Program-made: the position numbers and the translations under genes
DNA from: Octopus vulgaris
Taxonomy: Eukaryota
Direction: 5' to 3'
DNA: 64,000 nt
NCBI GenBank assembly: GCA_951406725.2
Contig: OX597830.1
Location: 68,820,001 to 68,884,000 of the forward strand
In this document: one piece after another, positions 20,627 through 59,836 of the stretch
How positions within the stretch are numbered: position 1 is the first letter of the stretch
How the letters are laid out: each line of letters begins with the position of its first letter
The notes under the pieces: generated by a model
Database searches by the model: none
Seen by the model: only the letters and a program-made list of their open reading frames with translations
What the model was told of the DNA's origin: nothing

Positions 20627-20679
20627 ATTCGAAGAGGTGGAGGACGAAGGCCGGTGGCAATGGCATCTTCTGCCAATGG
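20627..20679 (+). CDS. Micro-exon A1 (53 nt, phase 0->2) of an unannotated modular micro-exon gene; IRRGGGRRPVAMASSAN(G)
   Basis: Acceptor ttattctctAG, donor GTAAGT. Flanks 20200-21050 are homologous to those of A2 and A3. Length 3n+2. Confidence 0.75.
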
Positions 20680-21379
20680 GTAAGTAGACAAACATTTCCA
20701 TATTACATTTACTCATCATATTTAAAGACACCACTAAACCTCTAAATCTCTTCATATCTGATCCTTAGAGAATTTTAAGTATTGCTTTTATCCTTTAGTA
20801 TTTGAACAATTTCAACAATAATAAAAGAAAGAATAAACTATATTTACCCCACCATATTACTGGTATTTTTATAAAGGGAAAGCGATGTTATTGAGTATTT
20901 TCCATGATGGAAAAATGAAAGAGAATCGACAGTTAAGAAATGATATATGGCAAGTATTTTGTACAACAGCCTGTGAGTTCAGGTAACTTAGTCACCTTAG
21001 AAAAATTTAGAACATTAATAACCAAAATAAGATTAATGTTTTACGAAGTCTCTACACCAAGTGAAAGAATTGATATAAAATATACGGATTTTATTAATTG
21101 GCAGTGAATTTCTACCTACAATGCTATTTAATATTACGTCATTTCAATGATATTTGACGTATTTTATTGTGACAGAAAGTTTTAGTTGAATGAATCGGTC
21201 CCAGATCTTATTCTGTTTTTAAGCGTGGTATTTATGCTATCCGAAGGGTATTATTAATTAATATCCTAGAAACAGCTGGAAGAGCTTCTATCTATAAATG
21301 CTCTAATATCTATGCAGCCTTGGTTTTTTATCTTATAACGCAAAAAATTCATATATGATAGATCGTTAGCTACTACACA

Positions 21380-21540
21380 CATTTTTCTCTCCTTGTTTTT
21401 TCTGTGTCCCTTTCTGTAGAAGAACGTAGGCTCGAAACGTAAAAGACTTTTTCTATTCCTGAGCGTTATACTAATACATCTGTTTGTTTTGTACACCACC
21501 TCTCTTCGTCCTTTGTTTTTTCGAAAACTCTCCCTATATA
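21380..21540 (+). mobile_element. Short interspersed repeat with gaagagcgtaggctcgaaacgt motif (Penelope-terminal-like); further copies at ~28140-28310 and ~35350-35560
   Basis: Three homologous copies in the window. Confidence 0.65.
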
Positions 21541-21599
21541 TATATATGGATTTCATAGACAGAAACTTACAGAAATCAATCGTTTATATATGTATGTAC

Positions 21600-21757
21600 A
21601 TATGTAAGTGTATGTGTGTGACTTTGTTTCTGTGTTTCGCCCACATCACTGATTCACAACTGCTGTCCGTTTATTTACATCCCCATAACTTACTGGTTTC
21701 ACAAGAAGAAACTAATAGAATAAGTACCAGGCTTATCAACATAAAAAAGCACTAGGC
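21600..21757 (+). mobile_element. SINE family 1, decayed
   Basis: catccccataactta...atagaataagtaccaggctt. Confidence 0.55.
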
Positions 21758-22849
21758 TGTCTCATATTTTTGTTTGCCCACTCAGTTGTATCTATCAATT
21801 TATATTTGTGTGTATATACACTTTGCCCGTGTTACATGTAATTGAAGAATTAGACTTTTCTGTTATATTTTCTGTAATGTTTCGAATTTCATCAAAATTG
21901 CAGATGAGGGTTATTTCCCTCTTTACACAACCTAACAAAATTGTAATCGTAACACATGTATCCCATACTAATGATTTTTATGCGCATATTCCAAAATTCT
22001 AGTCTTATAGAACCTGTTAAAAGGATTTTGCTCCTGAAAAATGGAGGTCATGGAACGCTCTAAAATGTGAGAGTTAAGGCCTCTATTGGTGGGGGATGTC
22101 TTAATGTCAAGCAGAGAAGTTGAATTGTTGAGAATCTTTTTAACTAGGGTCTTATATCTATTGCTTGAATTTCTTTGAAATAGGAAATATATGTTCACTG
22201 GGTTTGTAAAATAGAGCAAAGCTACAGGAAACCAAAGGACGAATCATCACAATAAGCAGTCAGCTACCCTACTCCAGTCGTTACCACTCCCAATGTAATA
22301 TTCCCAATGTAGTATTACAGCCGTAAGATGCATTACGAATCTATAGTAATTGGAAGGGCGTGACCCAACTGAAATAAACATTAACAACTGTGTGACGTGA
22401 GGGCTAAGGATAAATGAAAGTTGGAGTTTGCAAATGACCACTGTACTGATACGTAACTGGACAGAATAAATTTACAATCTATAAATGTCTTTGAATAACA
22501 AGTCACTCATCTGGGAAGGCCTTGAAATCAATGTTACTCTCTGGGGACTATGTGTGACTCAGTGATAATAAAAAGACTGAAAGGAGGTCTGCAATCAAAT
22601 AACTTTACTCAACACTTTGCAACTGAATCAGCGGAAGCAAAGATGCCTCCCATTTTCTTGACAATTTATGCACCACATTGCAGAAATCACAATCTAAGTG
22701 TATGCCAAAGCAAACTCTTACACTGTTGTACCATTGAATTACAAATAATGCTCATCTTTATGCTCGGGTGACCCTACAGCTTCCAAGAGTACAACTGTAT
22801 TCGTCTTTGCTTAGATAAAATGATTAAATTGTGGGTATTAAGTCCCCAT

Positions 22850-23335
22850 TAAGGGTCTTTCTAACTTGCAAGAAGATGAAATTTTATAAATATTACTTCA
22901 TTTGTATCTTATATCTGTGGTTAAAATTTCATCAGCAGCAAAAATATATGAATTGTCATGGGGGTTATGGCCTTTATACATAGAATATAATTCCCAAATT
23001 TCGTGAAGATCCATTCAGTACTTTTGACCTAATTTTGGATCATAAAAGAAATGACTAAAATTTGGGAGTTAAGGCCCTCAATATGGTGTCTTAGAATCCT
23101 CATATGAAGTGGAATCTTTGAGAATACTTCTTGATGTGTATCAATTACTTCAAATATCATAAGGATCCATTCAGTAATTTTGGTCCATGAAATTGTATGA
23201 AACACACAGCATTGCCCTTCTCCCTAGGCTTTGATTTTGTGTTCTAAATTTCATTATGATCGGTGCAGCAGTTTTTGAATATATAAGTAACACGCGAACA
23301 CACATAAAGACATTGACGTTGATATAATAGATATG
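22850..23335 (-). mobile_element. Non-autonomous Helitron/HINE-like element with internal subrepeats
   Basis: Minus strand starts atctattatatcaa...aaaaactgctgcaccgatcataatgaaatt. Subrepeat gatccattcagta occurs at ~23008 and ~23164. Confidence 0.45.
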
Positions 23336-23999
23336 AATAATGTTGAAAAAAGCCTGCGAAACGCAGAACATAAACAAATGTGGCGTTAACAAAAAAAAAA
23401 GCACGAAGGAGTTCCAACAATAATAATCCAACAATGCAACACTCACGTACGAAATGAACTACTCCAAAGGCGAAGAAATTTGGAATGCCAGGAATGCTAT
23501 TCAAGTTCATTTTTATAGCCATAACCTCCACGAGATGCACGTGCATTTCGGTTTTCTTTTCAATAGTTTGCGACTGCTACCCACGACATTCAACGCAGCT
23601 GCATTTTGGCGTCCCGTTTCAGGAAAGTCTAAAGATTGCCTGTAATTTGGGTCTCAGCCATAAATCAGCATGTTTTGGAATATTTACTCTTACGTCACTG
23701 AAATATATTTAGAATATAAAATGACATTTGAAAAAGATTGCGTTTCTTTTGCGATTCAGTGTACATTAGGAAATCGTAGATAGTGACCACACAGCAATGC
23801 CAAATAATATCATAAGCACTGGGAGTGTAAGATACGAAGTCAAACGTAACGAAAAGGAAGAAAACAACGAAAGGCAACAAACCCAGGCCGCATGAATGTA
23901 TAATGATGAGCTATATGCACGAAATCAGAACACCACAGACAAAAAATATGAACAGGAAGGAAAGCGAAACAAATCTAAAACCTTAAAAGAGTGATTATG

Positions 24000-25345
24000 A
24001 TACTCTAAATATGAATATAATCAAAGAATTGAAAGGCTCAGATCTCAGTATGGATAACTGACTGTAGCTCCCCAAAATTAAGATTGATATTAAAGCCACA
24101 TTAATAATAAATAATAGGAAACTGGCCGTCACGGAACTAATACCCACAGAAACAAACGTCAGTATAATCAGGTTAAATGCTATAATATATCAAAGCTGGA
24201 TACCCTCTCAAACCCATCCAAACAGGAGAATTACCACCTAAAAAAATCTTGTGGATAAAGAATATCTAGAAAGAGATATAAAATAAAAGAAAGGATCTCT
24301 CAGTCCTTAAGGAAATTAGTAGACAATCAACACTACTAAGCAACAAGAACAGAACTAAAATACTATGGAAATAGAAAATTCTAGAACAAAGTATACCTGG
24401 GATAAAAGAACAGCTAAAGCAAGATATCCTCGCCAAAGTACAAAAAATCCGCCAGTATGAGATACGCCAACGTTTCTTTGAACAAAACAAACAGTTCTAC
24501 TCCAATTTCAAAAGATTCTACCTAGAACTTGGCAAAAATAAAATAGAGATCAATGGAAAGAAATATGGTCGGTGAGGGAACAACCTAGGAAAAGGTCTTT
24601 CAAAATAACAAAAACAGCTCCTCTACAAATCTGGACTCCTATAACAACTGAAGAGGTCGGCAACCATGCACTACAAGGTCTCCAATTTCTGGTTGAAATA
24701 TCAAACAGGAATACAGAAAACGATGCCCAGGAAATTTGATGAAATACTAAAAGAACCTGAGACAATATTTAAAGGGCCCATAGAAGGGAAACATTTCCTG
24801 ATTAGCAAGTCCACTGAAACGGGAAACCCACAAAATTACAAACCGATAACTTGTCTCGCTACAATTTACAAAACCTTTACTGCAGAGATTGGGCAAACAT
24901 CTGGAAGATAACAACCTGATTCTGAAACAGAAGAAGGGGTGCTGCAAAAGCATCAGCTACCTGTCAATAAAGCCATAACTGAAGACAGCCGACAAGAGAA
25001 GAATGGGGCAAGTATGACTGGGATCGATTATCGAAAAGCTTTTGATAATATTCTATGACCAAAGTAACGACAATAACCGAAAGAGAGCCGTCCCCGTTAG
25101 AACAGTAATATTTCTGGGAGACACGATCTTTCCACTCTTTCTGCTTGGCACTGATACCTTTATCTGACGTGCTAAATAGAATTAGATATGGATACAACTT
25201 TTACGGGAAAACAATCGACCAACTCTTGTATAAGAATGATCTAAAACTATACGCTACAAATGATAAACAGCTGGAAACAGTACAAGAGAGAGTACATGCC
25301 TTTGCCAAAGAAATAAACATGGAATTTGGCTTAGAAAAATGATAA
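24000..25345 (+). mobile_element. Degenerate R4/Dong-like LINE RT region
   Basis: NYKPITCLATIYK, LALIPLS and LLYKNDLKLYA (decayed YMDDLKLY), MEFGLEK. Confidence 0.8.
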
Positions 25346-25689
25346 AGTATTAGCGAAAAACTGATGAAGAATTAGCGAGTATCTGTGACTTATACATATA
25401 CGTTTTTAGCTGTTGCTTATTTCCATATATGGCTGTGCGCGCGCGCGTGCAAAATAGTGAGTTAAAAAACGAACATGAAAACAAACGGGACAACGTACAC
25501 AAAAATGTATTATAGCTTGACGCCCACTGAAAGGAGTAGGTATGACATTTCGATCATTTACACACACACACACACACATATATATACATATATATATATA
25601 TATATAAATATATATATGTATATATATGTATATATTATAGATAATATATGCCTATATACATACGCATATGTACATACTTACATTTATAC

Positions 25690-25759
<70 letters not shown>

Positions 25760-26311
25760 ATATGCATATCTGGGCATAGGACGTCATTAAACGTGTACAA
25801 AAATACGAAGCACGTGTACATGGAACACGAACTATTTTTTTCGAACAACGAAAGACATAAATGGAAAACAAAACAAACATGAAGAACGACCGCTCATCAG
25901 TTGCTGGTTGTTTCTCTATTCTCGTATTTCGAGCATTTAACAACAATATACGCATTCGATAAAACAGTTGCTCCCGCAAAGCAAATTAAGTAGAATTTGG
26001 GATTTTGCGGAGGATCAAAATAGGTAACACAACCAGGACAGTGAAAAGAAACAGGAAGGGCTGTTAAGCCTAAACGAGGTTGTGGTGACGAACGCGTAAA
26101 TTAAGCTAGGACATGATACAAGCAAGAACACGTCTTCCTTCTTCCAGCTACAACGGAGAGAAAATAAGAAAGATGTCCGATGGTCACGCGGGAGCCACGT
26201 GAGCAAGGAAGAGTGAAGGAGAGAATAACAGAGTAATAGGATAGAACAGTGGGAGAAGAGCAGGTAAAATAGTAATAATGATGATAATAATAATAATAAT
26301 AATAATAATAT

Positions 26312-26820
26312 ATATATATATATATAAAACTCTAGTTGTGTGAGTGTCTGTCCCCTTCGATTTAGATTCCTAACTCCTCCCACATTTTGCGGTACAGTTT
26401 AACCAAATTCGGGTATCTTATAGTCGTGATTCATATCGAGCCCGTCTGACTATTAGCGCGCGTCAACGATGAGTCTACGATTTTAAAAATAATTTAACAT
26501 CATTTTTTATTCCATTTTAATGCATAAAATGCATCGTGTGTCGATGGCGGCGAAGTTGGCGTCCACGCTCACAGCTGCACCTGTTTGCTTCTCCCCCTTC
26601 CCTCCCTCGTGAAGCTGTGGGGAAGGGAGTGTAAAGAAATCAACGTCGTAATGCGTTGTGAAGGAAACCAGCGTTCTTTTAGAACAACGATTTCATGGCT
26701 TGAAGACACCAAAACAAAAATGGCTAAGAAAGCCCGAATTTATAAGGGAAGTAACTCTCTAAAAATGCTTATATAGTTATTTCCCTTACAAACCCGAGCA
26801 ACGCCGGGCGATACTGCTAG
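26312..26820 (+). mobile_element. Non-autonomous Helitron
   Basis: Subterminal hairpin cccgagcaacgccggg followed by CTAG|T at 26817-26821; 5' end tatatataaaa merges into (TA)n. Confidence 0.8.
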
Positions 26821-26949
26821 TATATATATAAAAGGAAAAAGTAAAAAGAAACAAAGAAAATACACACTAGGCATAAAAGTAATGGTTCTTTTTCTTAGAA
26901 CAAAGATACATATATATACAATTAAATGATTTGAGGGGAAATTAAGAAG

Positions 26950-28135
26950 TATAAAAATCCTTACTATGAGTCATTATAGAAAGTCATACCGGTTTCGACA
27001 TCGCTGTTCACTAACTTTGAATCAACACCAATTTCCAAACGCTGTTGGGTCTAATAGTACCTGTATCTGTATCTGTATGCAAGGGAGGTAAGCTGTTCTG
27101 AAAGTGATGCAATTAGATTAATATGATTAATTGAGTATGAATGGTATATGAGATATTTGAGGATTAGTGGGATTACTTGTATTAGTAAGGTTAGTAGTGT
27201 CCTGTATTAAGTTGTGTGTTCATGTTAAGTTGTGGTTGATATTTATTACTGAAAGTTGCCTCTTTATTTAGTCATTACTGCACTGAGGTGTTCTGGGAGC
27301 ATTGAGAAAAAGGTAAAATTAGGAAGTTTGGTTTAAGACTCCTATCACATCTATCTATGTGCTCACTAACATGTATCTGTCTATACTGTGGGAAACTGAT
27401 TTGTTGTTTTTGAAGCGTTGTTCTTCGTGTTTGTCCTATATAGTAGTTTTGGCAACCTAAGCAAGTAATGACATAGATTTGGTTTTCAGAGGCAAAGTGA
27501 AATGTGACTTTATCTTAAATATTTCACCTTGTTTGAAGTGAAATTCTGTACCCCCCCCCCCCCCAAAAAAAAGGTGGAAGCATGTGCCCCAGTTAGGCCA
27601 CCCCATTTTCCACCTTTGGTTCCGTTGTTAAGGGATATAATCTTGCGCCGGTTAAATTTTGATAATTTTGTGTGAGTCCAAAATTTCGTTCATTGTTTAT
27701 CCCCAGTGCAAATGGGTAAATTCCGGATGATGATGTTGAATGCCTCATTGTTTCTGGAGTTATATGTGGAGATGTATAGGAGTACATTTAAATTTTGTGT
27801 AGTATTTCGGTTAACTTCTCTTAAGGCTCGTATGTCTGATTCCTTTGAGGTACCATATTTTTGCTGTGATAATTGGTATATTTTAATTTCTATATTACAA
27901 AATTCGCAATCAGTGGGGCAGCACGAGGTTCCACTGCAATTCCACATTTTTCTTGATAGTAAACTGTATCGGACATGAAGTAGTTGTTCTGGAGGTTAAA
28001 TTTCAGTGCAGGGATTGTGAAGCTGTGGCTGATGCGTCCTGGGATCTCTTCTGGGTATTTTTCTAGCCAGAAGAGGATTGCTTTTATATCATAATGGTGT
28101 GGGTAACTAGTGCACAAATTCACCACATCCAATCC
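26950..28135 (-). mobile_element. Penelope-like element remnant (RT plus GIY-YIG)
   Basis: DVVNL..QNNYF..YYQEKCGIA..AAPLIAN (RT) and IYVITCLGCQNYYIGQT at ~27430-27480 (GIY-YIG). Confidence 0.85.
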
Positions 28136-43171: not shown

Positions 43172-43249
43172 CAGAGAAGGATCTTCTCAGAGAAGGATCT
43201 TCTCAGAGAAGGATCTTCTCAGAGAAGGATCTTCTCAGAGAAGGTTCTT
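43172..43249. repeat. 16-bp minisatellite CAGAGAAGGATCTTCT, about 4.8 copies
   Basis: Visible directly; the repeat contains the hairpin GAGAAG-GAT-CTTCTC. Confidence 0.9.
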
Positions 43250-43594
43250 GTCGTGTTTTAGCTGTTTATCTTTAGAGGTTTGGGCGAGAATAATGAAGAG
43301 CTGAAAAGGTATAGATAATAATGCTCAGGTGTCTAGGTGGCGCTTCAACGTGAATAGAAGTGGGTAGGAACAAGGAAAGAGGTGTGTGGATTGGTGGGGT
43401 TGTAAAAAGGATTTGGTTAGCAAAAGATGGAGAAATGAGAAACGGAAAGGGAGGCAAGGACCAACTGTAAAGATTGGATAAAGGATGGGGTTGAACAAAT
43501 GAGCCAAGACCAAAGAGAAGTGCACTTTCAAAATAAGAAAGAGGGAGATCAACAGAATCGGGAACACATGAGTCAAACGCAAAGACAGCTGCAC

Positions 43595-43883
43595 TTCGTG
43601 AGGGGATTTGGTAGACGGAAACTGAAAGAAACCCGTTATGTATAAATATATGTGTGTGTGTGTGTGTGAATTTGTGTCTGTATTTGTGCCCCTCACTACC
43701 ATCGCTTGATAACCGATGTTGGTGTGTTTGCGTCCCTGTAACCTAGCTGTTTGGCAGAATAGTTTGCTAGAATAAGCACCAGGCTTACAAGAAATAAGTT
43801 CAGAAGTCGATTTCTTCGACTAAAGGGCGATATTCCAGCATCGTCACAGTCAAATAACTGAAACAAGTAAAAGAGTAAAAGAA
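43595..43883 (+). mobile_element. SINE family 1
   Basis: ggatttggtagacggaaactgaaagaa...actgaaacaagtaaaaga. Confidence 0.88.
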
Positions 43884-44033
43884 TAGCAGAAATAGGTTCC
43901 GTTCCACTAAACCAAGAAGGTTCTTTGAATATGTGCGATGCATTTTATGGCTAACTAGTAATACTGCTTCCGTATGCGTAACTGAGATATTTGGGTTGGA
44001 TTATATAGTTATTGCTTTGTTTTCAATTTATTC

Positions 44034-44255
44034 CAAGGCGGTTAGCTGACAGATTCGTTAACAGGCGGGACAAAATGCTTGGCGGTACTTCCCCCCGTCA
44101 CTACGTTCTGAGTTCAAATTCTGCCATGGTCGACTTTGTCGTTCATCCTTTCGGGGTCGATGCAATAAGTACCAGTTCCGTACATGCGTTGATGTAATCG
44201 TGTTATCGCGTCTCCCCAAATTTCAAGCCCTGTGCCCAGGGTAGCAAGGGTTATA
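44034..44255 (+). mobile_element. SINE family 2
   Basis: aaggcggttagctgacaga...ctgagttcaaattctgcc...cctttcggggtcgat. Confidence 0.85.
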
Positions 44256-44384
44256 TGCTTACTGATTTTACACCACTTTCTATATTCTGTAATTGTCACA
44301 ATACAGAAACATTTCTCATAGCACACGCACACAATTTACAGATGCTTACACTTATTTTCCGTGACATTTTAACGGGTCCAGTTA

Positions 44385-44458
44385 ATTATTATTATTATAT
44401 TTTATTATTATTATTGTTATTATTATTATTATTAATATATTTATTATTATTATTATTA

Positions 44459-44496
<38 letters not shown>

Positions 44497-45041
44497 GAGT
44501 GAGAGAGCAGTTCATGCCATCAAAGTGACACTGGGGTAAAATATACGAAGCCCAATATACCCATCATGACTACCCGTCTGATAAAGGTACATCAGGCACA
44601 TGCATCACAACCATATGTGCGCGACATGGTGATCTCATATCAAGATAAACAGCACATGACCTTGCAGGTGGGGCCCAGTTAGAATTTTCTTCAGGTTGAG
44701 TAGCCCATCCTGCTCAAAAGGTCCTTGAATAAGGGTTGCTTTAGGATGTTGAACGAAACACCTATGTTTCCAGAGGTGAACCATTCAAACTCCAAAGAAT
44801 CCCTCTCAACACATGGCCATGATGCTCCCCCACTACTTCTGCTCGTGATCAGAGATGCACGTATTGTCAGCCACTAAGGGACATGCTCAACTGGTTAAGG
44901 TCAAACAACTGACAAGCAAATCTGTGGTATTGAGCAGAATATTTGCTGTAGCCCATCTTTTATACCAAGACAAAACAATGTACATGATAACACTTCCAAT
45001 CAGTTAAGATCAGAAGCCATGAGAGCCACTGCCTGGTACTG

Positions 45042-45112
<71 letters not shown>

Positions 45113-46192
45113 TTTATTATTATTATTATTATTGATTGATTGATTGATTGATTGACTGAAAGAACAGCGCATGCAATCCAAATGACAGTGGAATGAAATA
45201 TATGAAGCCCAGTATAACCATCATGACTACCCTTTTGATAAGGGTACACCTAGCACATGCAACACAGCCACCCAGTTTAAGTAGATCACTCCGCTCAAGA
45301 GGTTCCTGAATAAGGCTTGTTTTAAGGATGATGAACGAAGCATCCATATCTCCAGACGTGAATTATTCAAAACCTGCAAGAATTTCTCTCAACACATGGC
45401 TATGATACTCCCCCACTACTTCTGCACAAATCGACAGCCACTAAAGGACATGCTCAACTGATTAAAGCAAACATCTGACAAGTAAATCTGTGATATTAAG
45501 CAGAATATTTGCTGTAGCACATCTTTTATACCAAAACAAATCAATGTAAATGATAGCATTTCCAATCAGTTAAGATCAGAAGACATGAGAGCCAGTGTCT
45601 GGTAATGCATCAGGGTATTTATTATTATTATTATTATTGAGTGAGAGAGCAGTTCATGCCATCAAAGTGACACTGGGGTAAAATATACGAAGCCCACTAT
45701 ACCCATCATGACTACCCGTCTGATAAAGGTACACCAGGCACATGCATCACAACCATATGTGCGCGACATGGTGATCTCATATCAAGATAAACAGCACATG
45801 ACCTTGCAGGTGGGGCCCAGTTAGAATTTTCTTCAGGTTGAGTAGCCCATCCCGCTCAAACGGTCCCTGAATAAGGGTTGTTTAAGGATGTTGAAAGAAC
45901 CACCCATGTTTCCAGAGGTGAACTATTCAAACCCCAAAGAATCCCTCTCAACACATGGCTATGATGCTCCCCCACTACTTCTGCTCGTGATCAGAGATGC
46001 ACATATCGTCAGCCACTAAGGGACATGCTCAACTGGTTAAGGTCAAACAACTGACAAGCAAATCTGTGGTATTGAGCAGAATATTTGCTGTAGCCCATCT
46101 TTTATACCAAGACAAAACAATGTACATGATAACACTTCCAATCAGTTAAGATCAGAAGCCATGAGAGCCACTGCCTGGTACTTCATCAGGGC

Positions 46193-46250
<58 letters not shown>

Positions 46251-46488
46251 TACTTGTAATGTGCATGTTTGTTACAATCACTAGCTGAGCCACACCTAGC
46301 GTCATAGGGCGAGTGAAGGATAAGAGATGTTACAGTATAACTGAAAGCTGGTGGATGTGAAGAATACTAAATAGAAACTTCAATCGATAAGGTTCTTCTT
46401 CTTCTTCTTCTTCTTCTTCTTCTTCTTCTTCTTCTTCTTCTTCTTCTTCTTCTTCTTCTTCTTCTTCTTCTCATTATTATTATTATTA

Positions 46489-46523
<35 letters not shown>

Positions 46524-47066
46524 GAGTGTGAGAGTAGTGCATCTTTCATAGTGAAACCGGAGCAAAATATAGGAAGCTCAGTATACCCATCATGACTAAC
46601 CTTCTAATGAGGTTACACCAAGCACATACATCACAAACATATGTACGCAGCATGGTGACGTCATATCAAGATAAATACCACTTAACCATGCGGGTGGAAT
46701 TTTCTTCAGGTCGAGTAGCGCACCTCGCTCAAAAGGTTCCTGAATAAGGTTTATTTTAAGGATGATGAACGAAGTACTCGTGTCTCTAGAGGTGAATTAA
46801 TTAAACCCCAAAGAATTCCTCTCAACACATAACTATGATGGTCCCCACTACTGCTACCCGTGATCAGAGATGCAAATATTGTCAGCCATTAAGAGACATG
46901 CTCAATTGGTTAAGGTCAAACAACTGACAAGCAAATCTGTGATATAGAGCAGAAAATTTGCTGTTGCCCATCCTTTATACCAAAAACAAATCAATGTATA
47001 TGATAACACTTCCAATCAGATAAGATGAGAAGCCACGAGGGACAGTTTCTGGTACGGCATCAGGGC

Positions 47067-47145
<79 letters not shown>

Positions 47146-47275
47146 GAGTGAGAGGGCAGTGCACGCCATCAAAGTGACACTGGGGTAAAATATACGATGC
47201 CCAGTATACCAATCGTGACTACTCGCTTGATAAGGGTACACCAGGCACATGCATCACAAGCATAAGTGCGCGACA
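44385..47275 (-). repeat. Five same-orientation copies of a ~550-bp non-coding element separated by (ATT)n tracts
   Basis: Units ~44497-45043, ~45157-45616, ~45639-46193, ~46524-47068 and truncated ~47146-47275 share the gagtgagagagcag..gccatcaaagtgacactgggg end. Strand is inferred. Confidence 0.92.
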
Positions 47276-47279
47276 AAAA

Positions 47280-49925: not shown

Positions 49926-49949
49926 GTGACGAAGGCTTCATTTTTTTTT

Positions 49950-50690
49950 TTTTATCAAATTTAAACACTGCCAGCGAGTATTGAACAGGGAACTTGTTTC
50001 ACTGATAAGTTTCGATAAATAATTGTTTCATCGAAACAAATCTCACTTGGTTTCTTGGGCATTATATAGTTACTATAATTTTCATGTTTGGCAGGCAATA
50101 ACTTTCTTAAAAGTAGTCGTACTTTTTTCTTGTCAGAACAACTTTTACATTCTTCTTTGAAACTTTCTACGTATCTTCAAAAACATGCAGAGAACGTAGT
50201 TCCTTTTTTCTGGATTATAACTGAACTCTCCAATGGCGTTTGCTACACTGTCTGGCGAGTATAAACCTGAAGTATTTTCAGACTGCTTCCATATTAACTC
50301 CAGCAAATGCTGGTTTTGTTGTTGCTGTTGTAATCGCTGTTGCAGCTGTTGTTGCTGGTGCAACTGCACCACCCAGGTCAATAAGTCCTCCATATTAACG
50401 ATTTTTTTCTCTGGTTCCATACCGAAACATTTTAACCCAAGCTTCGAATATCTCGTCACCACTTTTAAATCCTGGTGCTGGATAAAGAAAATTTAACGAA
50501 TTTGTGTAGAGGGGAGAAAGTATTTACGCGACACACTGCTATTACTGCTGCAGGAGGCTAATTCCCCTCTATAAACTGCTCACAGTCAATTGCTGCTGTC
50601 AACTCGACAGTTGTTGATTTTAAAGAAATGTGTCAGTGCACTTTTAGTCACTTGAGGTGGTCAGAATCCTTCCATATCACTTATATTCCC
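49950..50690 (-). mobile_element. Gypsy-type LTR retrotransposon 5' fragment (LTR remnant, PBS, gag start)
   Basis: PBS-like TGGTGACGAG on the minus strand at ~50452-50461, followed by a Q-rich gag-like segment ..SVANAIGEFSYNPE. Confidence 0.6.
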
Positions 50691-50791
50691 CATTCTCAGT
50701 TAAAAGATAAAGAGTGAATCATTCGATTCTAGACTCATCATGACAAATTCACTTTACTAATCTGGAATTTTCTCATTTATTCAATTTGCAG

Positions 50792-50837
50792 ACTCTCAAA
50801 CAAACCTGCCGTAGATGGTTTTACCAACAAAAGTAAA
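50792..50837 (+). CDS. Micro-exon B3 (46 nt, phase 2->0); LSNKPAVDGFTNKSK
   Basis: ttactaat...caatttgcAG acceptor, donor GTAAGT. Flanks ~50695-51190 align with the B1 flanks ~28815-29312. Confidence 0.75.
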
Positions 50838-52019
50838 GTAAGTCTTTTTAAATTTTAAAATACTTTTCTTTTGTTTTATTTGCCTGGACTGTGATGAATG
50901 GTTTGTTGAAATTTTCATCAATGGATATGTATAAAAAGAATACTGAATATCATTTTTATGAATATTTTTATATATTTTCTCACATTGGTGCAATCTTTTA
51001 TACTGGGGGGCCAAACTATTATTCTTCATTCTGGTAGAGCCAGCTACTATTTTTCCAATAAGTAGAGTTGTCTACTTTATCTCTTACTGGTAGTTCCAGA
51101 AACTATATTCCATATATTTAGAGACGCCTTCTATTTTTTTGTATTATTATGGCCAGTGTAGTAGTCTTCATTTTAGTACGGCGGGACACTAGAAAAGTCA
51201 TCATGTAGCTCGAACGACTATGCATCCTGAGGTAGGATAATTTTATGCAGAATTAGGAGTAGAAAGCAGTAAAGTATGAGCGAAAAAGGTTTGAGCAGAA
51301 CAAGTTCGTTGTTACACAGGAGAGAGATGAACGAGTGGAGAAGGAAAATGATGGACGATAGGGGTTACGAGGTGCCAAAAAGGACATTGAAGCTAAAAGA
51401 TTGGTAGAAATGCGTGGGGAGCAGGAGATATCTTATAATACAGAAGAACAGGAAAAACAAAGATGGCACAGTAAAAGAGACAAGAGAGATGACATGCTGT
51501 TGAGTAGGCTGAGGAATGAGCGGCGAAGAGAAAGGAGAGGGTGACAGGTATAGTGGTGGCGGCGGCGGCGAGATAATTTGATGGCATAGTGGGGTGGGTG
51601 GGAGTGATGAATGAAAGTGTGGGTGGAAAGAACAATATTAAATGATGAAGGATGGATAAATAGTGAATTTATTCTGGATAGAAAGAAAAGTGATATCAAG
51701 TAAGAACTGGTGTTAGGGAGTTGATGGAGATGGTGGGTGCCTTGAAAAGAATTGAAATTGGGTGAAAGGCCGAGTTAAACATAAATATACATACACAACT
51801 TTACAAGAGCACCGTTCCACTGAGGTGGTATGTCTTTTAGAGAACTACACATCACCAGTCATACTGGTTCTCTATAATTTCTTCCATGTGGTCCAAGCTC
51901 TTAATCACCTCTCTGAAGTTCAAGATCCTGAGATAAGCCTAACACATACACACAAACATACACACACACACGCACACACACACACGAGAGAGCTATTAAC
52001 ACTGGTCGACATCTTTTGA

Positions 52020-53960
52020 AAAGTCGTGTGCTTCTTAAGTGAGATTAGTTAATTCTTATGTATTTTCATGTCCTGAATCCAAATATCACCTTGAAAAATG
52101 CTTATTAGCTATAGGTTGAAAGACACATGACATATAATATTTGATTATTTTATTATAACGTACAGTTTTTGTCATTATGTTTAATGCTCTAGTCCGTATC
52201 TACTCCCTGCCTTTTTGCTTGACGCTTATGGAGGGCTGAAGAATAATGTCCAGCAAGCATCGTTTTCCTCCATTTGCACTGGTACCGCTGTTTCCATAGT
52301 TGAAATATCTTGGTAAAACCGTCAACGATGTTCGTCACTAACTGCCCCACAGCCCGCTAGAAAAACGTCCAAATGTGTCTCCAAACGCGGATTTAACATG
52401 ACATGTTACATCTCATATTCTTGTAAGCCTTGGCGAGGTTTTCCATTAGTTCTTTAAGAAGCTCTCAGCACTGAGGACCAATGAAGACTCCCTCTTTTAT
52501 CATAGCATTGCTCAGTGAGGGTGGGAATTCTGATGTTAAATACTTGAATCCTTGACCAGATTTGTCCATAGCTTTTACAAATTTTTTCATGAGCCCCACT
52601 TTTATGTGTAGTGATGGGAGAAAAATTTTGCTTGGCTCAGTGAGAGGTGGAAGCTGAACATTTTTCATCCCAAGTTTCAACGTTTGACGAGGTGACCAGT
52701 CTCTCCTGATACAGTGCGAACCTCTTGCGCAGCTATCCCATTCACACAGAAAGTAACAGAACTTGGTGTATCCGTCCTGAGAGCCCATCACAAAAGCAAC
52801 AACCTTTAAGTCATCACAGAGCTGCCATTGATGTTCACTATATTTTATGCATTGCAGCATAAGCTTTATATTCTCTTATGTTTTTTTTTTTCATATATGA
52901 TTCATAGCCCACATGAACTGAAGGTTCACTATTGCTATTATGCAACAAGAGAGCTTTCAGGCAAATTTTTCATGAATCTATGAACAGCCTCCAGTGACTG
53001 GGTTCGTATTTAATATCAAGTGCTTCCATCAGACCATTAATATTTTTGCAGGCCAATAAATCACCTTCCATTATGAAAAAATTGCTGAACTGTTGCTGAC
53101 GGTCATGAAATTTTGAAAGTTTACATCAGCTATTCGGAGATTTCACTGTTGAAGACGAGAGCCTAGCAGCTCTGCCCTATTCTCAGGTAGTCATAGATCC
53201 TTGTCAAGGCCATGGAAATCCCGTTGTGATCTAGAGGAGTGTGTTTCATCAAAATTTTGGTCATTCTGCAATCCAGCACTGTTATCCCCTTCTGCTTCCT
53301 CTTCACCCCCTTCTTCATCTGACTCGAAGAATATGGAAGTTGGTGCATCAGGAACAGATAGACATTTTCCACGTGGAACCTGGCGCATACCTAATGGAAT
53401 ATTTCGATATTCATGGGACTCTTTTTTGAAAAGCCCTTTTTCACTGGAAGTACCATGCAGAAATAACAATTGCCTGTATTGTCTGTTGGCTCCCGCCACG
53501 TAATTCGTACAATAAAAGATATTCCTTTCCTTTTCCTGTTCAACCATTGGTGAAGGCTAGTAGCACAAGTGTTGCAACACATGTGAGGAGCCCACTTCTT
53601 ATCCTGGTCGCCAATCTTGCATCCAAAACATAGGTGATATACCTTTCTAACCAGAGCAGTAATACGGCGCTTCTGCGATGCAAAGGTCACCTCACCACAA
53701 ATGTTGCAGAAGTTGTCTGCCTTATTCACACAAGTGCGAGGCATTTTAAAGAAGACGACAAACAATAAGCAGCTAAACAGAAAATTCGTTCATAAGTTTA
53801 TCATTAGCAGAAGTGTTTATATCATTCAGTAGAAAAATAAAATTAATATAAAATGCTTCATATGCATATCAACAGCTTGCTCAATGAATATTTATTATAA
53901 GTTTAAAAAGTGTTTGACTAGGAAAATCATTTACCTTTTACTTCAGTATTTAAACTTGCA
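52020..53960 (-). mobile_element. Chapaev3-like (CMC) DNA transposon with disrupted transposase
   Basis: MPRTCVNKADNFCNICGE..FGCKIGDQDKKWAPHMCC..WREPT..CYFC, then DLKVV..GYTKFCYFLCEWDS and LPSLHIKVGLMKKFVKAM. Family assignment is from motif recall; ends are approximate. Confidence 0.7.
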
Positions 53961-54619
53961 CAGCACAACCACATCCTACGACTTCTCTAACAATCCTGAA
54001 GGGCAGTGCAACTGTGAGTGCGATAAGCAACTGTGAGTGCGATAAGAAACATACTACTGCGTGCTTTTGGAAATTTGTTTTTAATAGGATACCAACGTTG
54101 GCGGCGGAATTTATCTTGAAGGTTTCACCAATGAATAGATCTTTCAATTGATGGAGGCTACAAAAATATTAAATATATTAAACAACAAGATCATTTATCT
54201 TTAGCATCTGTTCTTTCCTTCCTTTCATTTTAGTCTCTATTTTTTAAATATGCATTAGGTGTATTGTATAACTTTCTCAGCCTGACAGATGTTTAAATTG
54301 GTGAAATAAAATTCTCTTATCATCTTGTGGCTCTGTTTCTATCCGGAAGATTTGATTCATTCCAATCCCATGTCAAAACCAGTGTACCATGCTAAAAACT
54401 ATAAATCAGTAAAAAACAAATTCATGTGTACTTGTGTTAATATGGATTGGATTATCTCTTCCAGATAATTGTAGTTATACTTATTTATTATAGTATTTCT
54501 GTTCAGTTATGTCATCTCTGTATAATTTGTTATAGAATTTGAAACTCTGTGTTATTAATGCCAGATGCTGAAATCTCATCATTCCTGCAAACATTCATAT
54601 TATTTTCTTTTATTTTCAG

Positions 54620-54660
54620 AAATCTGATAAGAAATGGATAGAGGAAAACATTAAACTAAG
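54620..54660 (+). CDS. Micro-exon A4 (41 nt, phase 0->2); KSDKKWIEENIKL(R)
   Basis: Strong acceptor ttttcttttattttcAG and donor AG/GTAATT. Length 3n+2 and open. Flank homology to A1-A3 is weak. Confidence 0.62.
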
Positions 54661-56213
54661 GTAATTCAAGAAATATGCCCCTAAATTTTACAATGTATAA
54701 GTACACATATATTAGGATTTCAGTTATGGTAATGTAAATTGAAACATTTTTATCAGTTGAGATTTTTCCAGTAATTAGTATACAAAAACATCGCTTAGAG
54801 ATGTGGACATCCAAAAGCAATGGGCGGGAGAGGTAACTAAAAGAATCTCTTAATTGTTGATTTCCATATAAGTCATTTTTTCTTATGTGAAATTTGACTG
54901 GCGACTGTTGGTGCTGCCACCTACAGTTGCTTTCGGAATAAGAGAAGATGAGAAAGAAAGTTTACTAAGAAATAGGGAGAGAGTAAGGTTTTCTATTTTC
55001 TTTACTTTTAACAGTGGATTAGAGATGCAGAAGGCGAGAGACAGTGATAGAATGAGGGAAAGTTTCTTACATGTTTAGGATTTCATTCCAGTAGTTTTTC
55101 AAAGATATTGTTTTATTTCTCTTGTTAATTTTCCCCCTCCAGTGCTTATTCGCCTTGTTAGATTGTTCTTCATACAGACTTGACTACCATTTCCTTTACA
55201 AACTACATGCACACCGCTCTGTGTTTCTCTCGGGTGCAAACGTGGGATCTCTTGTCGTATTTCCACGCTGCTTATCACGTGAGGATGACTTAGAATTAAT
55301 TTCCAATATGTTTCATCTCGCCATGGTACCTTTCCTTTTGTCTTGTGTGTAGCATTCATCGTTCGAATCACACGTGGGAAATGTGACAGGTAACTGTTGT
55401 TGCTGCTACCTACAGATGATTTTGAGTAAGAGAGAGAGAGAGAGAGAAAGTAAGTGAGTTACCTAGAAATAGAAGGGAGGGTGAGGTTTTCCTTTAAAGA
55501 GAAAGAACCACGCAGGGCTTATATTTTTTATTATTACAAGATTTTTTCTTACGAGGGAGAGAACATAAAATAATATTTCTATATAATTCAATTTTCCACC
55601 TCATTTTTAAGTGTCCTAGTAGCTGGAAATAACGTTATTTCGCTTTTCTTTGAGCATCCCAATACATCATAACTTAGTATCATGAGGCCAGTTGGACTAT
55701 GTTCATTTTAAAACATTTAGGAATTATATACAGTCGATTTTCTTATTTCCGTTTTCTTTCTTTTTTTTCTTAAACGCTTAGCACTTAAGAAAAGAAGTGA
55801 AGAGATAGAAGCAGAGAAATAAAATCTCTGGGGTTTTCTCATAATAATTTGGGAATATATTAAATTGTTACATTTCCAAATCCTACTCCCTTAGATCACC
55901 GGTATTATTTATGAAAAGCATAAAAATGGAGATCAACAGAAGACTAAAAAAAGTTAAATTTAATTGGTGTTTGATATAACAGTATATCATTTCTGTTCAA
56001 TCATTACTCTTAATACAGCAAAGGCATAAATAATTTTAACAATCACACACATGTTTATGAGTGAAAGAGGTTAGGTTTTGTGATGCCGATTTGTTTCTCT
56101 TTTATATAAAGAACAAATTAAAGTGAATTAAGCAAAAGTTAAAACTGGTTTGTGAACTCAGTGGGAAATCCACAGCATCTGCTAATAATGATCCTAATTA
56201 TATTTATGGAGAG

Positions 56214-56255
<42 letters not shown>

Positions 56256-56792
56256 AAGAGATTTTGAAATTTTACTTTTCTGGCTGGGGACTTGATCTAA
56301 TTTTATGTGAAGAAACTGAAATGAGTTCATCATAGATGATGAGTTATAACCACGACAACGTATATTGTTAGAAGTGTTTTCTTATATAATATTAAATATG
56401 AAGAAGTCTCAAAAGGTTAAATCGAACATGCATTTTGGAAGTTTGAGATGAAAATCAAAATGTCTAGCTTTATTGTTACTTAAAAATTCTATAAATGCCA
56501 GTTTCCCCTCTTTCCCAAGATGTTAGGGCGAAAGCAGTAATTAAAACATGAAATCCAAAATATGAGAAATCCTGGTCTTTGTGTTCCGCAGCAAATGTAA
56601 ATCATAGAAAGAAAATATATGGAAAATTTAAAAGAAAGTCAGCGTATTTAGCCAATTGGAAATGAAAAAGATGGCAAACATTGAAGCAAAAGACATTTTA
56701 TTGGAGAAAGATATCTTTTGCAATGAAAATGTGTTGCTGTGAAGATTTAATTTTGATGTAGAGGCATGTAAGAGAAACATCCTCCTCCTCCT

Positions 56793-56823
<31 letters not shown>

Positions 56824-56864
56824 ATCATCATCATCATCATCATCACCATCATCATCATCACTAT

Positions 56865-57475
56865 TTAACGTCCATCCACCTTGCTGCTACGGGTTTGACG
56901 GTGTGACAGGAGCTGGCCATCCAAGAAGCTCTCCAGACTCCAATTGTCTGTTTTTACATGGTTTCTAGGGCTGGATGCCTTCCCTAACGCCAACCACTTT
57001 GCAGAGTGTGCTGGGTGCACTTTACGTGCCACCGGCACGGGTTCATTTTACATGGCACTAGAACCTGTAAATCACATGCCTGTGTATATGGATGACCGGG
57101 ATATTACTTAGCGTGGTACGTCTTTTCAAGTACAGCAGATCATCACAACTCCCGGTCCCTTGATATTTCCTCAGTGTAGCCCAGTGTCTGAAGATACTTT
57201 CTCACCATTTCGTCCCATCGCATCTTCCCCCGCGTATTCCATCCACAAGTTCTCTCCACAATTAGGGATCAGCTCTTCTTTATGCAACCGTCCTCATCCA
57301 CACGCAACACATGATCAAACCAGCGCAGTCTCTTCTCTTGCACACAACATCTGATGCCTCTTAAATCATATAGTTTTCCTCTTAAATCATATACACTCTG
57401 ACATCCAGCGGAGCATTCTAGCTTCGTTTCTTTCAAGTGTTCGCAAGTCATCTGTTGTCATAGCTCATATTCCAC
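56865..57475 (-). mobile_element. RTE-1-type LINE 3' end with UTR and (CAT)n tail; related tail at ~43015-43090
   Basis: RGIRCCVQEKRLRWFDHVLRVDED. Confidence 0.7.
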
Positions 57476-58029
57476 CGCCAGTGGTTTCATTAAAATAAAT
57501 CCAACGGTAATGGGGAATCTACAAAAAAAATTTAACCTGAATATCGAAAAATGTTTCTGTCTTTAACTTTTTTGATGTACTACAATTTGCTGTTAATGTT
57601 ATTCTCGTTTTGTTTTTAAAAAGAAATATAATTCGTCTAATGTTGATTACGATACTATTTCCACTTTTTGCAAAAATTTCCGAGATGATAGTGGCTTATA
57701 CCTGTCATTCTGGCACCTTTTCATTTTCATGGAAGTGAAGCATAATTTTGAAGAAAAGTAATTTTATGGAAACGAAATCATTAATCTGTAATCCTTGAAC
57801 ATTTTTCTATTCAATTTTTATTAACTTTGGCAGCTGCTCTATTTATCTGCAAAAGACATAGGAGTAACACATATGCATAAAGTGACTGGCTTAATATACC
57901 TGCAGCAGGATTAAATGAAGTATGTCTACATTGCTGCTATCAGTTCCAACATTATTTATTCATTTTTTTAAAATTATTTTCTTTTGCTTCTATTCAGAAT
58001 ATATATTATACTCACACACAAAATATCTA

Positions 58030-59200
58030 AGAATGCCACAGAAAATTCAATTGACTGGATCTCAGACGAGTAAAATTTACAAAGAACAAAATGAAAACAT
58101 GCTGCTGTATTAGAAAAGACACAACACTGTGTAGAATTGTTATTTTCTTTGAAAAAAGAAAGCCTAGAGGCTAATAATGTAGAAACAGTATCAGACGTTC
58201 CTTTTGAAGAACCAGCTGCATTCCTAAGTAGATCTGCAGAAAAGAGGAAGAACGTATTACATCAAAACATTCAAGGTGAAGAATCCTCATGTCCTACTGT
58301 CATGAATAGCAAAGTAGCATCATGGGATCCAGACACAATCATATGATTTTCTGTCAGAGAAAAGTATTTGTCCATGTTCTTTCAGGCAAAATCATCCATA
58401 TGTTAAAATAAAAATGCCTCCGACACCTTCCCAGTATCTCGACACCATTATAAACCAAGTGAAGGCAAACTGGCTGGGCACTATCGTTGTTTAAAAAATT
58501 TAATGTTTTATACCATTCATGACAATGGTGAGCAGTTTTTTTAAAGATGTGACCCCTGTACAGCTCATCAGAGGGTAAGGTTTATTGTTTTTACTGCACT
58601 TTCCTGCAAGGTCAACATGACAGGTTTTCCAACAAGGAAGGCTTTACTGAAATGAGAAAAGCAGAGGAGAAACTGAAAACAGAAGAACAAAGTCAAGCCC
58701 CATCTTTTATGCAGGGATCATCTCATGTTAACAAGGTATTGGAAGAACAAGTCCAGGGAAACAAGAAATACTGGACTGAAGTATTGCATTCTTTCATGTA
58801 GTGACTGTGACAATATTTCTAGTTGAGAGAGGTCTGGCATTTAGAGGTAGTGAAGAGATAGTTGACTGAGAAATTTTCTGAGAATTATGGAACAATTTGA
58901 TCCATTTCTTATGGGTCACTTGAAAACCTTTGGCAATACTGGAAGTGGTAAGCAGTCGTACTTATCACCTACCATCTACGAAGAAATTGTTCTGTTGATG
59001 GCAAAACATATCAAGAATTATATTGTTGCAGATTTTAAAACTGCCAAGTATTTCCCTGTTTCTGTAGATCCAACACCAGAATGTTGCTCAGCTTTCAGTT
59101 ACTGTGTGTTACGTTCTTTCGGGTAAGCCAATAGAAATTTTGAATACTGCAGGAGACAGTCTTATGACAATGCCAGTATTATGTCCTGTCATTTTGACGA
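58030..59200 (+). mobile_element. Degenerate hAT transposase (ZMYM1-like type)
   Basis: FLVERGLAFRGSEE, then QFDPFL..HL..YLSPTIYEEI..AKYFPVSVDPTP; many stops. Confidence 0.78.
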
Positions 59201-59751
59201 TTGATGGTATGGAATGCGGAATTGGTTGTAGGTATGAGATTTCTAGTAGAGGAGAACGGAGAGAGGGTGTTCCTGTTGAGATAGGGTGTTGATGTGTGTA
59301 TCAGTGATACCTGGATAAGGTGGTCAGAGACCATCCAGCAGAGGCTATTTGTAGTAGCGGTAGAAAAGGCAGAGAAGACACAGCACAGTATGGGTCAGAA
59401 TTTGGTGTGTATTTGTAAGTGACTTCGTGCCAGTCAGTTGAGTAATCTTTTTCTCTCTGAATATGGTCTTATCATACCTCAGATGTGGAATGGTGAAACC
59501 CATTTTCTTAATTTATTTTGACGGCAACATATTTCTTATTTTTCCTTTTCAGTTTATTTAAAAGTAATCATTATTTGATTCAACTAAATTAAAATTTATT
59601 TATTTATTTCCGTGTATGGATTTATGTATCTATGTCGGTAATATTCATTGGAGTTGTTCTTTATCTCTTGATTTTGTCATTTTTCCTCTTCTACCTTCCC
59701 CATCACAACTTTACTTCAACAGTTCATTTGGTTTCTGTTTGTCTTTGATAG

Positions 59752-59836
59752 AAATTCTAAAGATGAGGAGCCATCAAAACCCTGTGATGCATTTGGTAAA
59801 ATAAAGTTTACAGGACATAATCAGGGAAATGCAATG
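59752..59836 (+). CDS. Micro-exon B4 (85 nt, phase 2->0); NSKDEEPSKPCDAFGKIKFTGHNQGNAM
   Basis: Acceptor tttgtctttgatAG, donor ATG/GTATTC. Downstream tgtttgtagaaattatccaat and ttttgtgaatattt resemble the B2/B3 downstream intron. An alternative donor exists after 59795. Confidence 0.55.

What the first reader, a model, noticed from the sequence alone, without database searches (positions are those of the whole stretch)
20627..59836. Phase design allows combinatorial in-frame splicing (any A to any downstream B)
All A exons are phase 0->2 and end in GG, AT, AT or AG. All B exons are phase 2->0 and begin with A. Every A-to-downstream-B junction is therefore in frame and gives Gly, Ile or Arg, never a stop, and every B-to-downstream-A junction is also in frame. 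B1 has an additional in-frame internal donor (CAG/GTATCT after 28933, giving 25 nt). Inference: a possible isoform-diversification cassette, analogous to schistosome micro-exon genes but using paired asymmetric exons.
Basis: inference. Interest (0 to 1): 0.7.

Follow-up and report, generated by a model that had tools for sequence, protein, structure and literature searches.

The report
Duplicated exon pairs in octopus TRPM
Eight tiny exons at the start of an octopus ion-channel-derived gene do fit together in frame in alternating pairs, but this fit is shared with the ordinary two-exon unit that they were likely copied from, and the RNA seen so far joins them mostly in order, so they likely encode a fast-evolving flexible tail rather than a dedicated mix-and-match splicing cassette.

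Summary
The phase arithmetic is right. Four 0->2 exons (53, 56, 59, 41 nt) alternate with four 2->0 exons (49, 70, 46, 85 nt), and all 10 A-to-downstream-B junctions give Gly, Ile or Arg. They are the 5' exons of an octopus TRPM-derived gene with four SLOG (MHR1/2) repeats.

This is probably inheritance, not design. A4/B4 are the standard first exon pair of the TRPM domain. Two single-domain TRPM genes in this genome have the same 0->2 / 2->0 (A-start) pair, and A1-A3 share intron flanks with one of them. Only 9 of 21 skips are in frame (0 of 6 single-exon skips), and one paralogue's A1 forms TGA.

Of 16 RNA-contig junctions, 12 follow a reference paralogue's exon order. None is a window-gene skip or uses the B1 internal donor. 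One RefSeq O. sinensis isoform does skip four exons in frame, and an alternative upstream exon is spliced in.

Diversity shows mainly in the DNA: 4-7 pairs per paralogue, and amino-acid changes about 3 times faster than silent ones. The scan had already reported this array on paralogous DNA.

The parts
20627..20679 (+). Exon A1, phase 0->2, IRRGGGRRPVAMASSAN; likely degenerate copy of the TRPM 'W..ENIK' exon
   Evidence: 3' flank similar to that exon in the single-domain TRPM at C17:44.34 Mb (z 4.6); A1|B1 junction in contig X1 record 1
28909..28957 (+). Exon B1, phase 2->0, LELQEMAQVSGQKTKQ; its ATG is the start codon in several RefSeq models
   Evidence: spliced to A2 at GT..AG
28931..28939 (+). 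Internal in-frame donor-like site CAG/GTATCT; GT absent in 5 of 18 B1-type copies; use not seen
30867..30922 (+). Exon A2, phase 0->2, PETTKTQIQAPVASTSFD
   Evidence: flanks shared with A3 (98.7% over 150 nt upstream)
37143..37212 (+). Exon B2, phase 2->0, SLSSERNLESLAEEDSHRDEESQ
   Evidence: A2|B2 junction as loose ends in X18 and X19
42168..42226 (+). Exon A3, phase 0->2, PQASERLIQRYFKPTFVSD
50792..50837 (+). Exon B3, phase 2->0, LSNKPAVDGFTNKSK
   Evidence: flanks shared with B1
54620..54660 (+). Exon A4, phase 0->2, KSDKKWIEENIKL(R): conserved first exon of the TRPM MHR1/2 (SLOG) repeat, not a linker exon
   Evidence: recurs at the head of each SLOG repeat (gene exons 16, 25, 36)
59752..59836 (+). 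Exon B4, phase 2->0, NSKDEEPSKPCDAFGKIKFTGHNQGNAM: conserved DAFG exon of TRPM MHR1/2; its 3' half is hypervariable among paralogues
   Evidence: the paralogue's B4 aligns to human TRPM2 TDAFGDIVF
14521..14526 (+). Candidate upstream ATG CAG followed by GT donor (Met-Gln, phase 0); predicted only
   Evidence: public O. vulgaris predictions P0005, P0009 and P0016 begin MQI(R/G)RGG; no RNA test

Best explanation
The eight exons are the 5' end of an octopus TRPM-derived gene with four SLOG (MHR1/2) repeats, and their alternating phases were likely inherited from the domain's first two exons, which form one frame-neutral unit that was likely tandemly duplicated and eroded into a predicted disordered N-terminal tail. 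Shown: exon phases; the same 0->2 / 2->0(A) pair in two single-domain TRPM genes; flank homology among A exons and among B exons; strict A/B alternation with 4-7 pairs in six complete paralogous arrays; in-order splicing in 12 of 16 contig junctions; excess amino-acid change. Inferred: only duplications or deletions of whole pairs keep the frame, so alternation is a by-product of how the array grows. The main transcript includes the exons in order. In-frame block skipping and an alternative upstream exon give minor extra isoforms. Most combinatorial variety arises in the germ line, by unequal crossing-over or conversion among paralogues, under diversifying selection. The tail would act as a variable interaction or regulatory segment ahead of ADP-ribose-type sensor domains (function untested).
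For: Single-domain TRPMs at C9:99.44 Mb (80 nt 0->2, then 166 nt 2->0 starting with A) and C17:44.34 Mb (77 nt, then 145 nt starting with A). Flanks of the 44.34 Mb W-exon match A1 (3', z 4.6), A2 (z 6.4/4.2), A3 (z 5.4/3.3) and A4 (5', z 7.3) against 200 shuffles. All 9 phase 2->0 exons of the gene start with A, as do 46 of 46 B-type calls in the fetched regions. Six of six complete arrays alternate strictly, with 4, 7, 5, 4, 5 and 5 pairs, and hard-wire forms that look like skip isoforms: B2->A4 in three paralogues; B1->A4 in a seventh, separate array at 67.8 Mb. 12 of 16 RNA junctions are in a reference paralogue's order. Minimum changes in linker exons: N 86/315 sites, S 8/96, intron 173/1724 (N/S 3.3, binomial p 1.7e-4); three SLOG1 control exons give N/S 0.94. 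The tail is 73-74% disorder-promoting residues against 55% in SLOG1. Human data show that duplicated neighbouring exons are nearly always phase-symmetric (108 of 118, PMC3632108, passages).
Against: RefSeq O. sinensis isoform X4 skips A2-B1'-A3-B3 in frame, so pair skipping is at least modelled. 4 of 16 RNA junctions are not in any reference order: two use upstream exon U, one goes to an exon absent from this assembly, and one joins a G4-type B1' to the window's A2. The last, and the U junctions, could be skips or haplotypes. Contigs drop rare isoforms, depth was 2.5-22, only B1-A2 could be laid, and 12 pieces and 4 loose ends were not shown. B-flank homology to the single-domain DAFG exons is weak (z up to 3.3). 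The N/S count ignores the tree and gene conversion.
Confidence: 0.72

Rival explanations
1. The array is an actively used combinatorial splicing cassette. Pairs of exons are skipped in many combinations per tissue or cell, giving a family of N-terminal tails, as micro-exon genes do with single exons.
For: 9 of 21 skips in frame and all junction codons open. RefSeq X4 B1->A4. An O. vulgaris prediction (P0003) also joins across one A/B pair of the 67.79 Mb array. Alternative upstream exon U is spliced to A2 in 2 contigs and begins RefSeq model P0004. Exons evolve faster than introns, as in MEGs (PMC4350168, passages).
Against: No window-gene skip and no use of the internal donor in 16 junctions. 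The phases match the ancestral pair. 0 of 6 single-exon skips are in frame. TGA at the A1/B1 junction of one paralogue. Of the four O. sinensis isoforms that carry the tail, three include all exons.
Confidence: 0.18
2. The window copy is a decaying partial duplicate. The tail exons drift or are converted among recent segmental duplicates, and neither the phases nor the variation have a function in this copy.
For: No channel-domain exons found from the 4th SLOG repeat to 69.244 Mb. 1-nt frameshift in gene exon 40. Near-identical duplicates and fragments nearby. SLOG1 control exons have N/S about 1.
Against: Window-identical B1 and A2 sequences occur in spliced contigs. The frame is kept over exons 1-39 when one of the twin exons 37/38 is used. 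All six complete arrays keep alternation. N/S of 3.3 exceeds neutrality. Four-SLOG models with the same tail exist in O. sinensis and O. bimaculoides.
Confidence: 0.1

Closest known systems
TRPM-beta / TRPM2-like channels, MHR1/2 (LSDAT/SLOG, Pfam PF18139) domain
   Same: A4/B4 and the following exons are the MHR1/2 N-terminus. The paralogue-type protein P0012 matches human TRPM2 at E 1.3e-142. Same 0->2 / 2->0 first exon pair as the single-domain TRPMs of this genome.
   Different: Four tandem SLOG repeats, a duplicated micro-exon tail, no MHR3/4 or transmembrane exons found downstream of this copy. ADPR-site residues Y295 and R358 of human TRPM2 (PMC6759353, passages) vary by repeat: in repeat 1, F for Y295, R kept for R302, P for R358.
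RefSeq models LOC115221043 (O. sinensis XP_036366249.1), LOC106871768 (O. bimaculoides XP_052830016.1) and O. sinensis TRPM-like 2 isoforms X1-X5 (XP_036366250-254)
   Same: Same exons in the same order, four SLOG domains; X4 skips four tail exons in frame.
   Different: Automated models, mostly 'uncharacterized'; I could not see the RNA support for X4.
Schistosome micro-exon genes (MEGs)
   Same: Short exons in long introns, recent gene-family expansion, accelerated non-synonymous change (PMC4350168, passages).
   Different: MEG exons are symmetric, make up most of the coding region, and the proteins carry signal peptides. Here the exons are asymmetric, cover about 10% of a 1400-residue protein, and show no signal peptide.
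Tandem duplication of phase-symmetric, disordered exon modules (Schad et al. 2013, PMC3632108)
   Same: A frame-neutral unit duplicated internally, encoding low-complexity sequence (passages).
   Different: The symmetric unit here is a pair of complementary asymmetric exons rather than one symmetric exon.

Membership tests
Schistosome MEG-type micro-exon gene | Exons individually symmetric (3n), so any one can be skipped | tested here: not met
   All 8 exons are 3n+1 or 3n+2; 0 of 6 single-exon skips in frame
Schistosome MEG-type micro-exon gene | Micro-exons make up most of the coding region | tested here: not met
   The tail is 143 of 1423 residues in P0001; 42 exons mapped, most 80-185 nt
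Schistosome MEG-type micro-exon gene | Signal peptide, secreted or surface product | tested here: not met
   Maximum 11-residue hydropathy in the first 35 residues 0.05 (P0001), 0.04 (P0010), 1.64 (P0014); simple hydropathy only, no dedicated predictor
Schistosome MEG-type micro-exon gene | Many skip isoforms in transcripts | tested here: inconclusive
   None for the window gene in 16 contig junctions; one RefSeq skip isoform in O. sinensis; contigs cannot show absence
Schistosome MEG-type micro-exon gene | Accelerated non-synonymous evolution and recent family expansion | tested here: met
   N/S 3.3 and N/intron 2.7 in linker exons; 25 A-flank matches on C17 among 43 rows
TRPM family | N-terminal melastatin MHR1/2 (LSDAT) domain | tested here: met
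   PF18139 exon hits at 68.885-69.05 Mb; four stretches in P0001; four repeats mapped
TRPM family | MHR3/4 plus six-helix channel domain in the same gene | tested here: not met
   No tblastn hit for P0010 residues above 420 up to 69.244 Mb; no PF25508 hit there (28 candidates scored, a lower bound). Channel exons do lie downstream of a paralogue at 79.31-79.35 Mb
TRPM family | ADP-ribose binding or gating | not testable with these tools
   Only residue equivalence was inspected
Tandemly duplicated symmetric exon module | Unit of length 3n with homologous flanks between copies | tested here: met
   Each A+B pair is 0->0; A flanks 72-99% and B1/B3 flanks about 72-79% alike; even-numbered arrays in 6 of 6 complete loci

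The most novel reading that the evidence does not exclude
Octopus has a cluster of TRPM-derived multi-SLOG sensor genes whose tail is diversified at three levels at once: germ-line shuffling of exon pairs between paralogues and haplotypes, positive selection on the exon sequence, and regulated in-frame skipping of pairs or whole SLOG domains (RefSeq X1-X4 join SLOG1 to the last SLOG before the channel). This would be an immune-receptor-like diversification system built from an ion-channel gene, with channel-less copies such as this one acting as soluble sensors or decoys.
Probability: 0.2. Interest if true: 0.72.

Novelty: new variant of a known kind. Interest (0 to 1): 0.38.

Why it matters
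The phase pattern itself is ordinary and should not be read as evidence of a splicing code. The setting is worth attention. Two 2026 surveys searched here list no multi-SLOG octopus genes in the passages and supplement rows found (PMC13402157 gives two TRPM per octopus species). Yet this genome has roughly 20 SLOG units on one chromosome (my count from the 81 exon hits), with a tail that changes amino acids about three times faster than silent sites and varies in exon number between copies and individuals. That is the signature of an arms race or rapid sensory tuning in a gene class not known for it, and it is directly testable with long-read RNA and population data.

Tried and rejected
1. General repeat finders on the window gave only microsatellites and a few intronic duplications; a self-BLAST showed the exon-flank homology instead.
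2. My splice-site scan was crude: it listed only 3 of the 8 exons above threshold. Exons were fixed by flank homology and tblastn.
Skips were read from loose ends, and A1-B2, B2-A4 and A3-B4 stay untested.
4. No RNA holder was listed as RNA on record; the runs are treated as RNA-derived only because their contigs are spliced at GT..AG.
5. The apparent B1->A3 junction in run X3 was rejected as a skip: its B exon carries the differences of the G4 paralogue, where B1' is followed by A3.
6. The 'goes back' joints A2->B1 were rejected as back-splicing: they match G4's order A2-B1'.
7. One RNA exon variant is absent from the assembly (0 matches), so junctions out of reference order cannot be assigned to skipping.
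8. A search for shorter proteins carrying the tail found only 3 gene predictions among 530 candidates, and no transcript-derived fragments.
9. Pairwise pN/pS was superseded by minimum-change counts because pairs are not independent. Length groups with fewer than 3 copies were dropped, A4 and B4 were left out of the pooled linker figure, and control exons E2/E3 had boundaries off by 2-3 nt.
10. Literature searches: octopus+TRPM+expansion+cephalopod (14 papers), SLOG+TRPM+tandem (21), octopus+microexon+alternative splicing+cephalopod (0). None of the listings or the passages read describes this array. The search on short TRPM isoforms gave only listings and was not used.
11. No structure or complex prediction was run; neither would decide the splicing question.
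Full report
1. Observation. The window is C17:68,820,001-68,884,000 of a 2.8-Gb genome. Proteins labelled Octopus vulgaris lie on a contig of the same length. The eight exons were located at 20627-20679, 28909-28957, 30867-30922, 37143-37212, 42168-42226, 50792-50837, 54620-54660 and 59752-59836. A exons are 53, 56, 59 and 41 nt (0->2; ends GG, AT, AT, AG). B exons are 49, 70, 46 and 85 nt (2->0; all begin with A). All 10 A-to-downstream-B junctions give GGA, ATA or AGA, and the internal site after 28933 is in frame. The description is accurate.

2. What the gene is. The exon after B4 hits Pfam LSDAT_euk, the SLOG/MHR1/2 domain of TRPM channels. O. sinensis P0001 (four LSDAT stretches, no channel domain) maps exon by exon over the window and the next 170 kb. 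I mapped 42 exons: six tail exons (A1-B3), then four SLOG repeats, each headed by its own A4/B4-type pair, with one more small A/B pair before repeat 4. A4 and B4 are therefore the conserved start of the domain; B4 of the paralogue-type P0012 aligns with TDAFGDIVF of human TRPM2. No channel exons were found downstream to 69.244 Mb, and exon 40 has a 1-nt frameshift. This copy would give a channel-less protein of about three repeats, unless the indel is an assembly error. A paralogous region at 79.31-79.35 Mb does carry channel exons.

3. Where the phases come from. Two single-domain TRPM genes of the same genome have the same pair. At C9:99.44 Mb an 80-nt 0->2 exon (CQRAWIERVFCKREC...) is followed by a 166-nt 2->0 exon starting with A. 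At C17:44.34 Mb a 77-nt 0->2 exon (EEERIWILENIKMRKC...) is followed by a 145-nt 2->0 exon starting with A. The intron flanks of the 44.34 Mb W-exon resemble those of A1 (3', z 4.6), A2 (6.4 and 4.2), A3 (5.4 and 3.3) and A4 (5', 7.3). B-exon flanks match the DAFG exons only weakly (z up to 3.3), though B1, B2, B3 and B4 share flank segments among themselves. An A+B pair is a 0->0 unit, and such units can be duplicated without a frameshift; in human genes 108 of 118 highly similar neighbouring exons are phase-symmetric (PMC3632108, passages). The alternation thus follows from the array's origin (inference). 'Never a stop' adds nothing beyond 'all B start with A' and 'in-order junctions are open'. 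It is also not universal: 1 of 40 A-type ends, the A1 of the paralogue at 68.30 Mb, forms TGA with its B1, and the matching O. sinensis models start at the ATG in B1. As a cassette the layout is only modestly permissive: 9 of 21 skips are in frame, against 155 of 465 in the domain exons, and 0 of 6 single-exon skips.

4. Paralogues. The A2 exon with flanks has 25 matches on C17 among 43 rows. Six complete arrays were mapped by flank homology: window 4 pairs; 44.6 Mb 7; 67.3 Mb 5; 68.3 Mb 4; 68.4 Mb 5; 79.6 Mb 5. All six alternate strictly. The arrays at 67.8 and 43.0 Mb also appear to alternate (partly motif-based calls). Forms that look like skip isoforms are hard-wired in DNA: B2->A4 in three copies, B1->A4 at 67.8 Mb, A2->B1' at 68.3 Mb. 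The O. bimaculoides model P0014 has the same kind of tail. Tail exons diverge faster than their flanks in 6 of 6 linker classes (ratios 1.4-7.7). Minimum-change counts give N 86/315, S 8/96 and intron 173/1724 (N/S 3.3, p 1.7e-4), against N/S 0.94 for three SLOG1 exons; B4 shows 17 N and 0 S changes among 7 copies. These counts ignore the tree and gene conversion, and length groups under 3 copies were dropped. The tail is rich in disorder-promoting residues (73-74% against 55% in SLOG1) and has no clear hydrophobic leader.

5. RNA. Contigs of four runs from two studies (not on record as RNA) were laid over B1-A2 only. Seven contigs show 16 exon junctions, all phase-matched. Twelve follow the order of a reference paralogue, including A1|B1, B1|A2 (GT..AG joint) and A2|B2 of the window type. 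Two join an upstream exon U to A2. U lies in introns after B-type exons of 8 other loci (10 hits) but not in the window gene, and it begins RefSeq model P0004, so it is likely an alternative first exon. One junction leads to an A3-like exon absent from the assembly. One joins the 68.3 Mb copy's B1' to the window's A2, an order no fetched locus has. No contig shows A2-B3, window B1-A3, or a cut at 28933. That GT is missing in 5 of 18 B1-type copies, though my rough score (2.5) does not exclude its use. Contigs drop rare forms, depth was low, and 12 pieces and 4 loose ends were not displayed, so this shows in-order splicing, not absence of skipping. For skipping: of five O. sinensis RefSeq isoforms in one cluster, X1-X3 have the full tail, X4 joins B1 to A4, and X5 starts elsewhere. 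I could not see their read support.

6. Mechanism. Most likely (0.72) a frame-neutral exon pair of the TRPM MHR1/2 domain was duplicated and eroded into a flexible tail that is mainly spliced in order, with minor block skipping and an alternative first exon. Its variety would be generated mainly by gene-level shuffling and diversifying selection. An actively used combinatorial cassette (0.18) remains possible; a decaying copy (0.10) is less likely. The downstream repeats keep some ADP-ribose-site residues of human TRPM2 (Y295, R302, R358 per PMC6759353, passages) and vary others; binding is untested.

7. Known systems and novelty. It works like ordinary tandem duplication of a symmetric module. 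It is not a MEG by three tested features (MEG definition from PMC4350168, passages), though it shares their fast evolution. It is TRPM-derived, but this copy lacks the channel. Papers seen: PMC13402157 (passages and supplement search) lists two TRPM per octopus species; PMC13143021 (passages and supplement search, 3 of 16 places shown) lists an O. bimaculoides TRPM-beta whose accession is next to P0014's; PMC12919962 (passages) reports two TRPMs; bioRxiv 2024.05.23.594666 (passages only, supplements closed and may bear on octopus TRPM counts). None describes this array in what I saw. Searches found no description. Earlier notes of this scan on paralogous DNA (e1-8662684, e1-9550311) reach the same reading; I had recorded mine before opening them, and they are not independent evidence.

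8. Verdict. Observation confirmed; interpretation partly supported; new variant of a known kind; interest 0.38. The phase 'design' is ordinary. The rapidly evolving multi-SLOG cluster around it is the part worth pursuing.

Noticed in passing
L023 (G000:C17:69025773-69025857 and 69031501-69031585): Twin 85-nt B4-type exons (2 differences, inside a 3.3-kb 97% duplication) ahead of SLOG repeat 4; including both would shift the frame, so they are a candidate mutually exclusive pair.
   Followed up: partly
L024 (G000:C17:69040679-69040841): Gene exon 40 is 163 nt instead of 164: a 1-nt frameshift in SLOG repeat 4, real or an assembly error.
   Followed up: partly
L071 (G000:C17 about 68431960-68432160) and 9 similar sites: Intronic exon U next to a palindromic element, spliced to an A exon in RNA contigs of two runs and used as first exon in RefSeq model P0004; open frame MTLTMMLMLIM... 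read by eye as in phase with A exons.
   Followed up: partly
window 59752-59836 and 6 paralogues: 3' half of B4 is hypervariable (17 non-synonymous, 0 synonymous minimum changes) while its flanks are 97-100% identical.
   Followed up: partly
P0008, P0010-P0013 (O. sinensis RefSeq): Isoforms X1-X4 join the first half of SLOG1 to the second half of the last SLOG before the channel: an in-frame whole-domain skip if real.
   Followed up: no
L084 (G000:C17:68300643-68300695): A1 of this paralogue ends in TG and forms TGA with B1, so A1 is probably non-coding or an upstream ORF there.
   Followed up: partly
L033-L035 (G000:C17:69.124-69.146 Mb): Inverted duplicate of a B1'-A1-B1 fragment at the end of a truncated opposite-strand array.
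   Followed up: no
G000:C17:68.41-68.50 Mb versus 79.61-79.70 Mb: Two arrays are nearly identical in the tail exons; recent duplication or a haplotype assembled twice.
   Followed up: no
window 7014-8558 (minus strand): 515-codon open frame resembling a LINE reverse transcriptase (family name recalled, not searched).
   Followed up: no
window 44497-47275: Intronic array of 5 related 120-550-nt units separated by ATT microsatellites.
   Followed up: no
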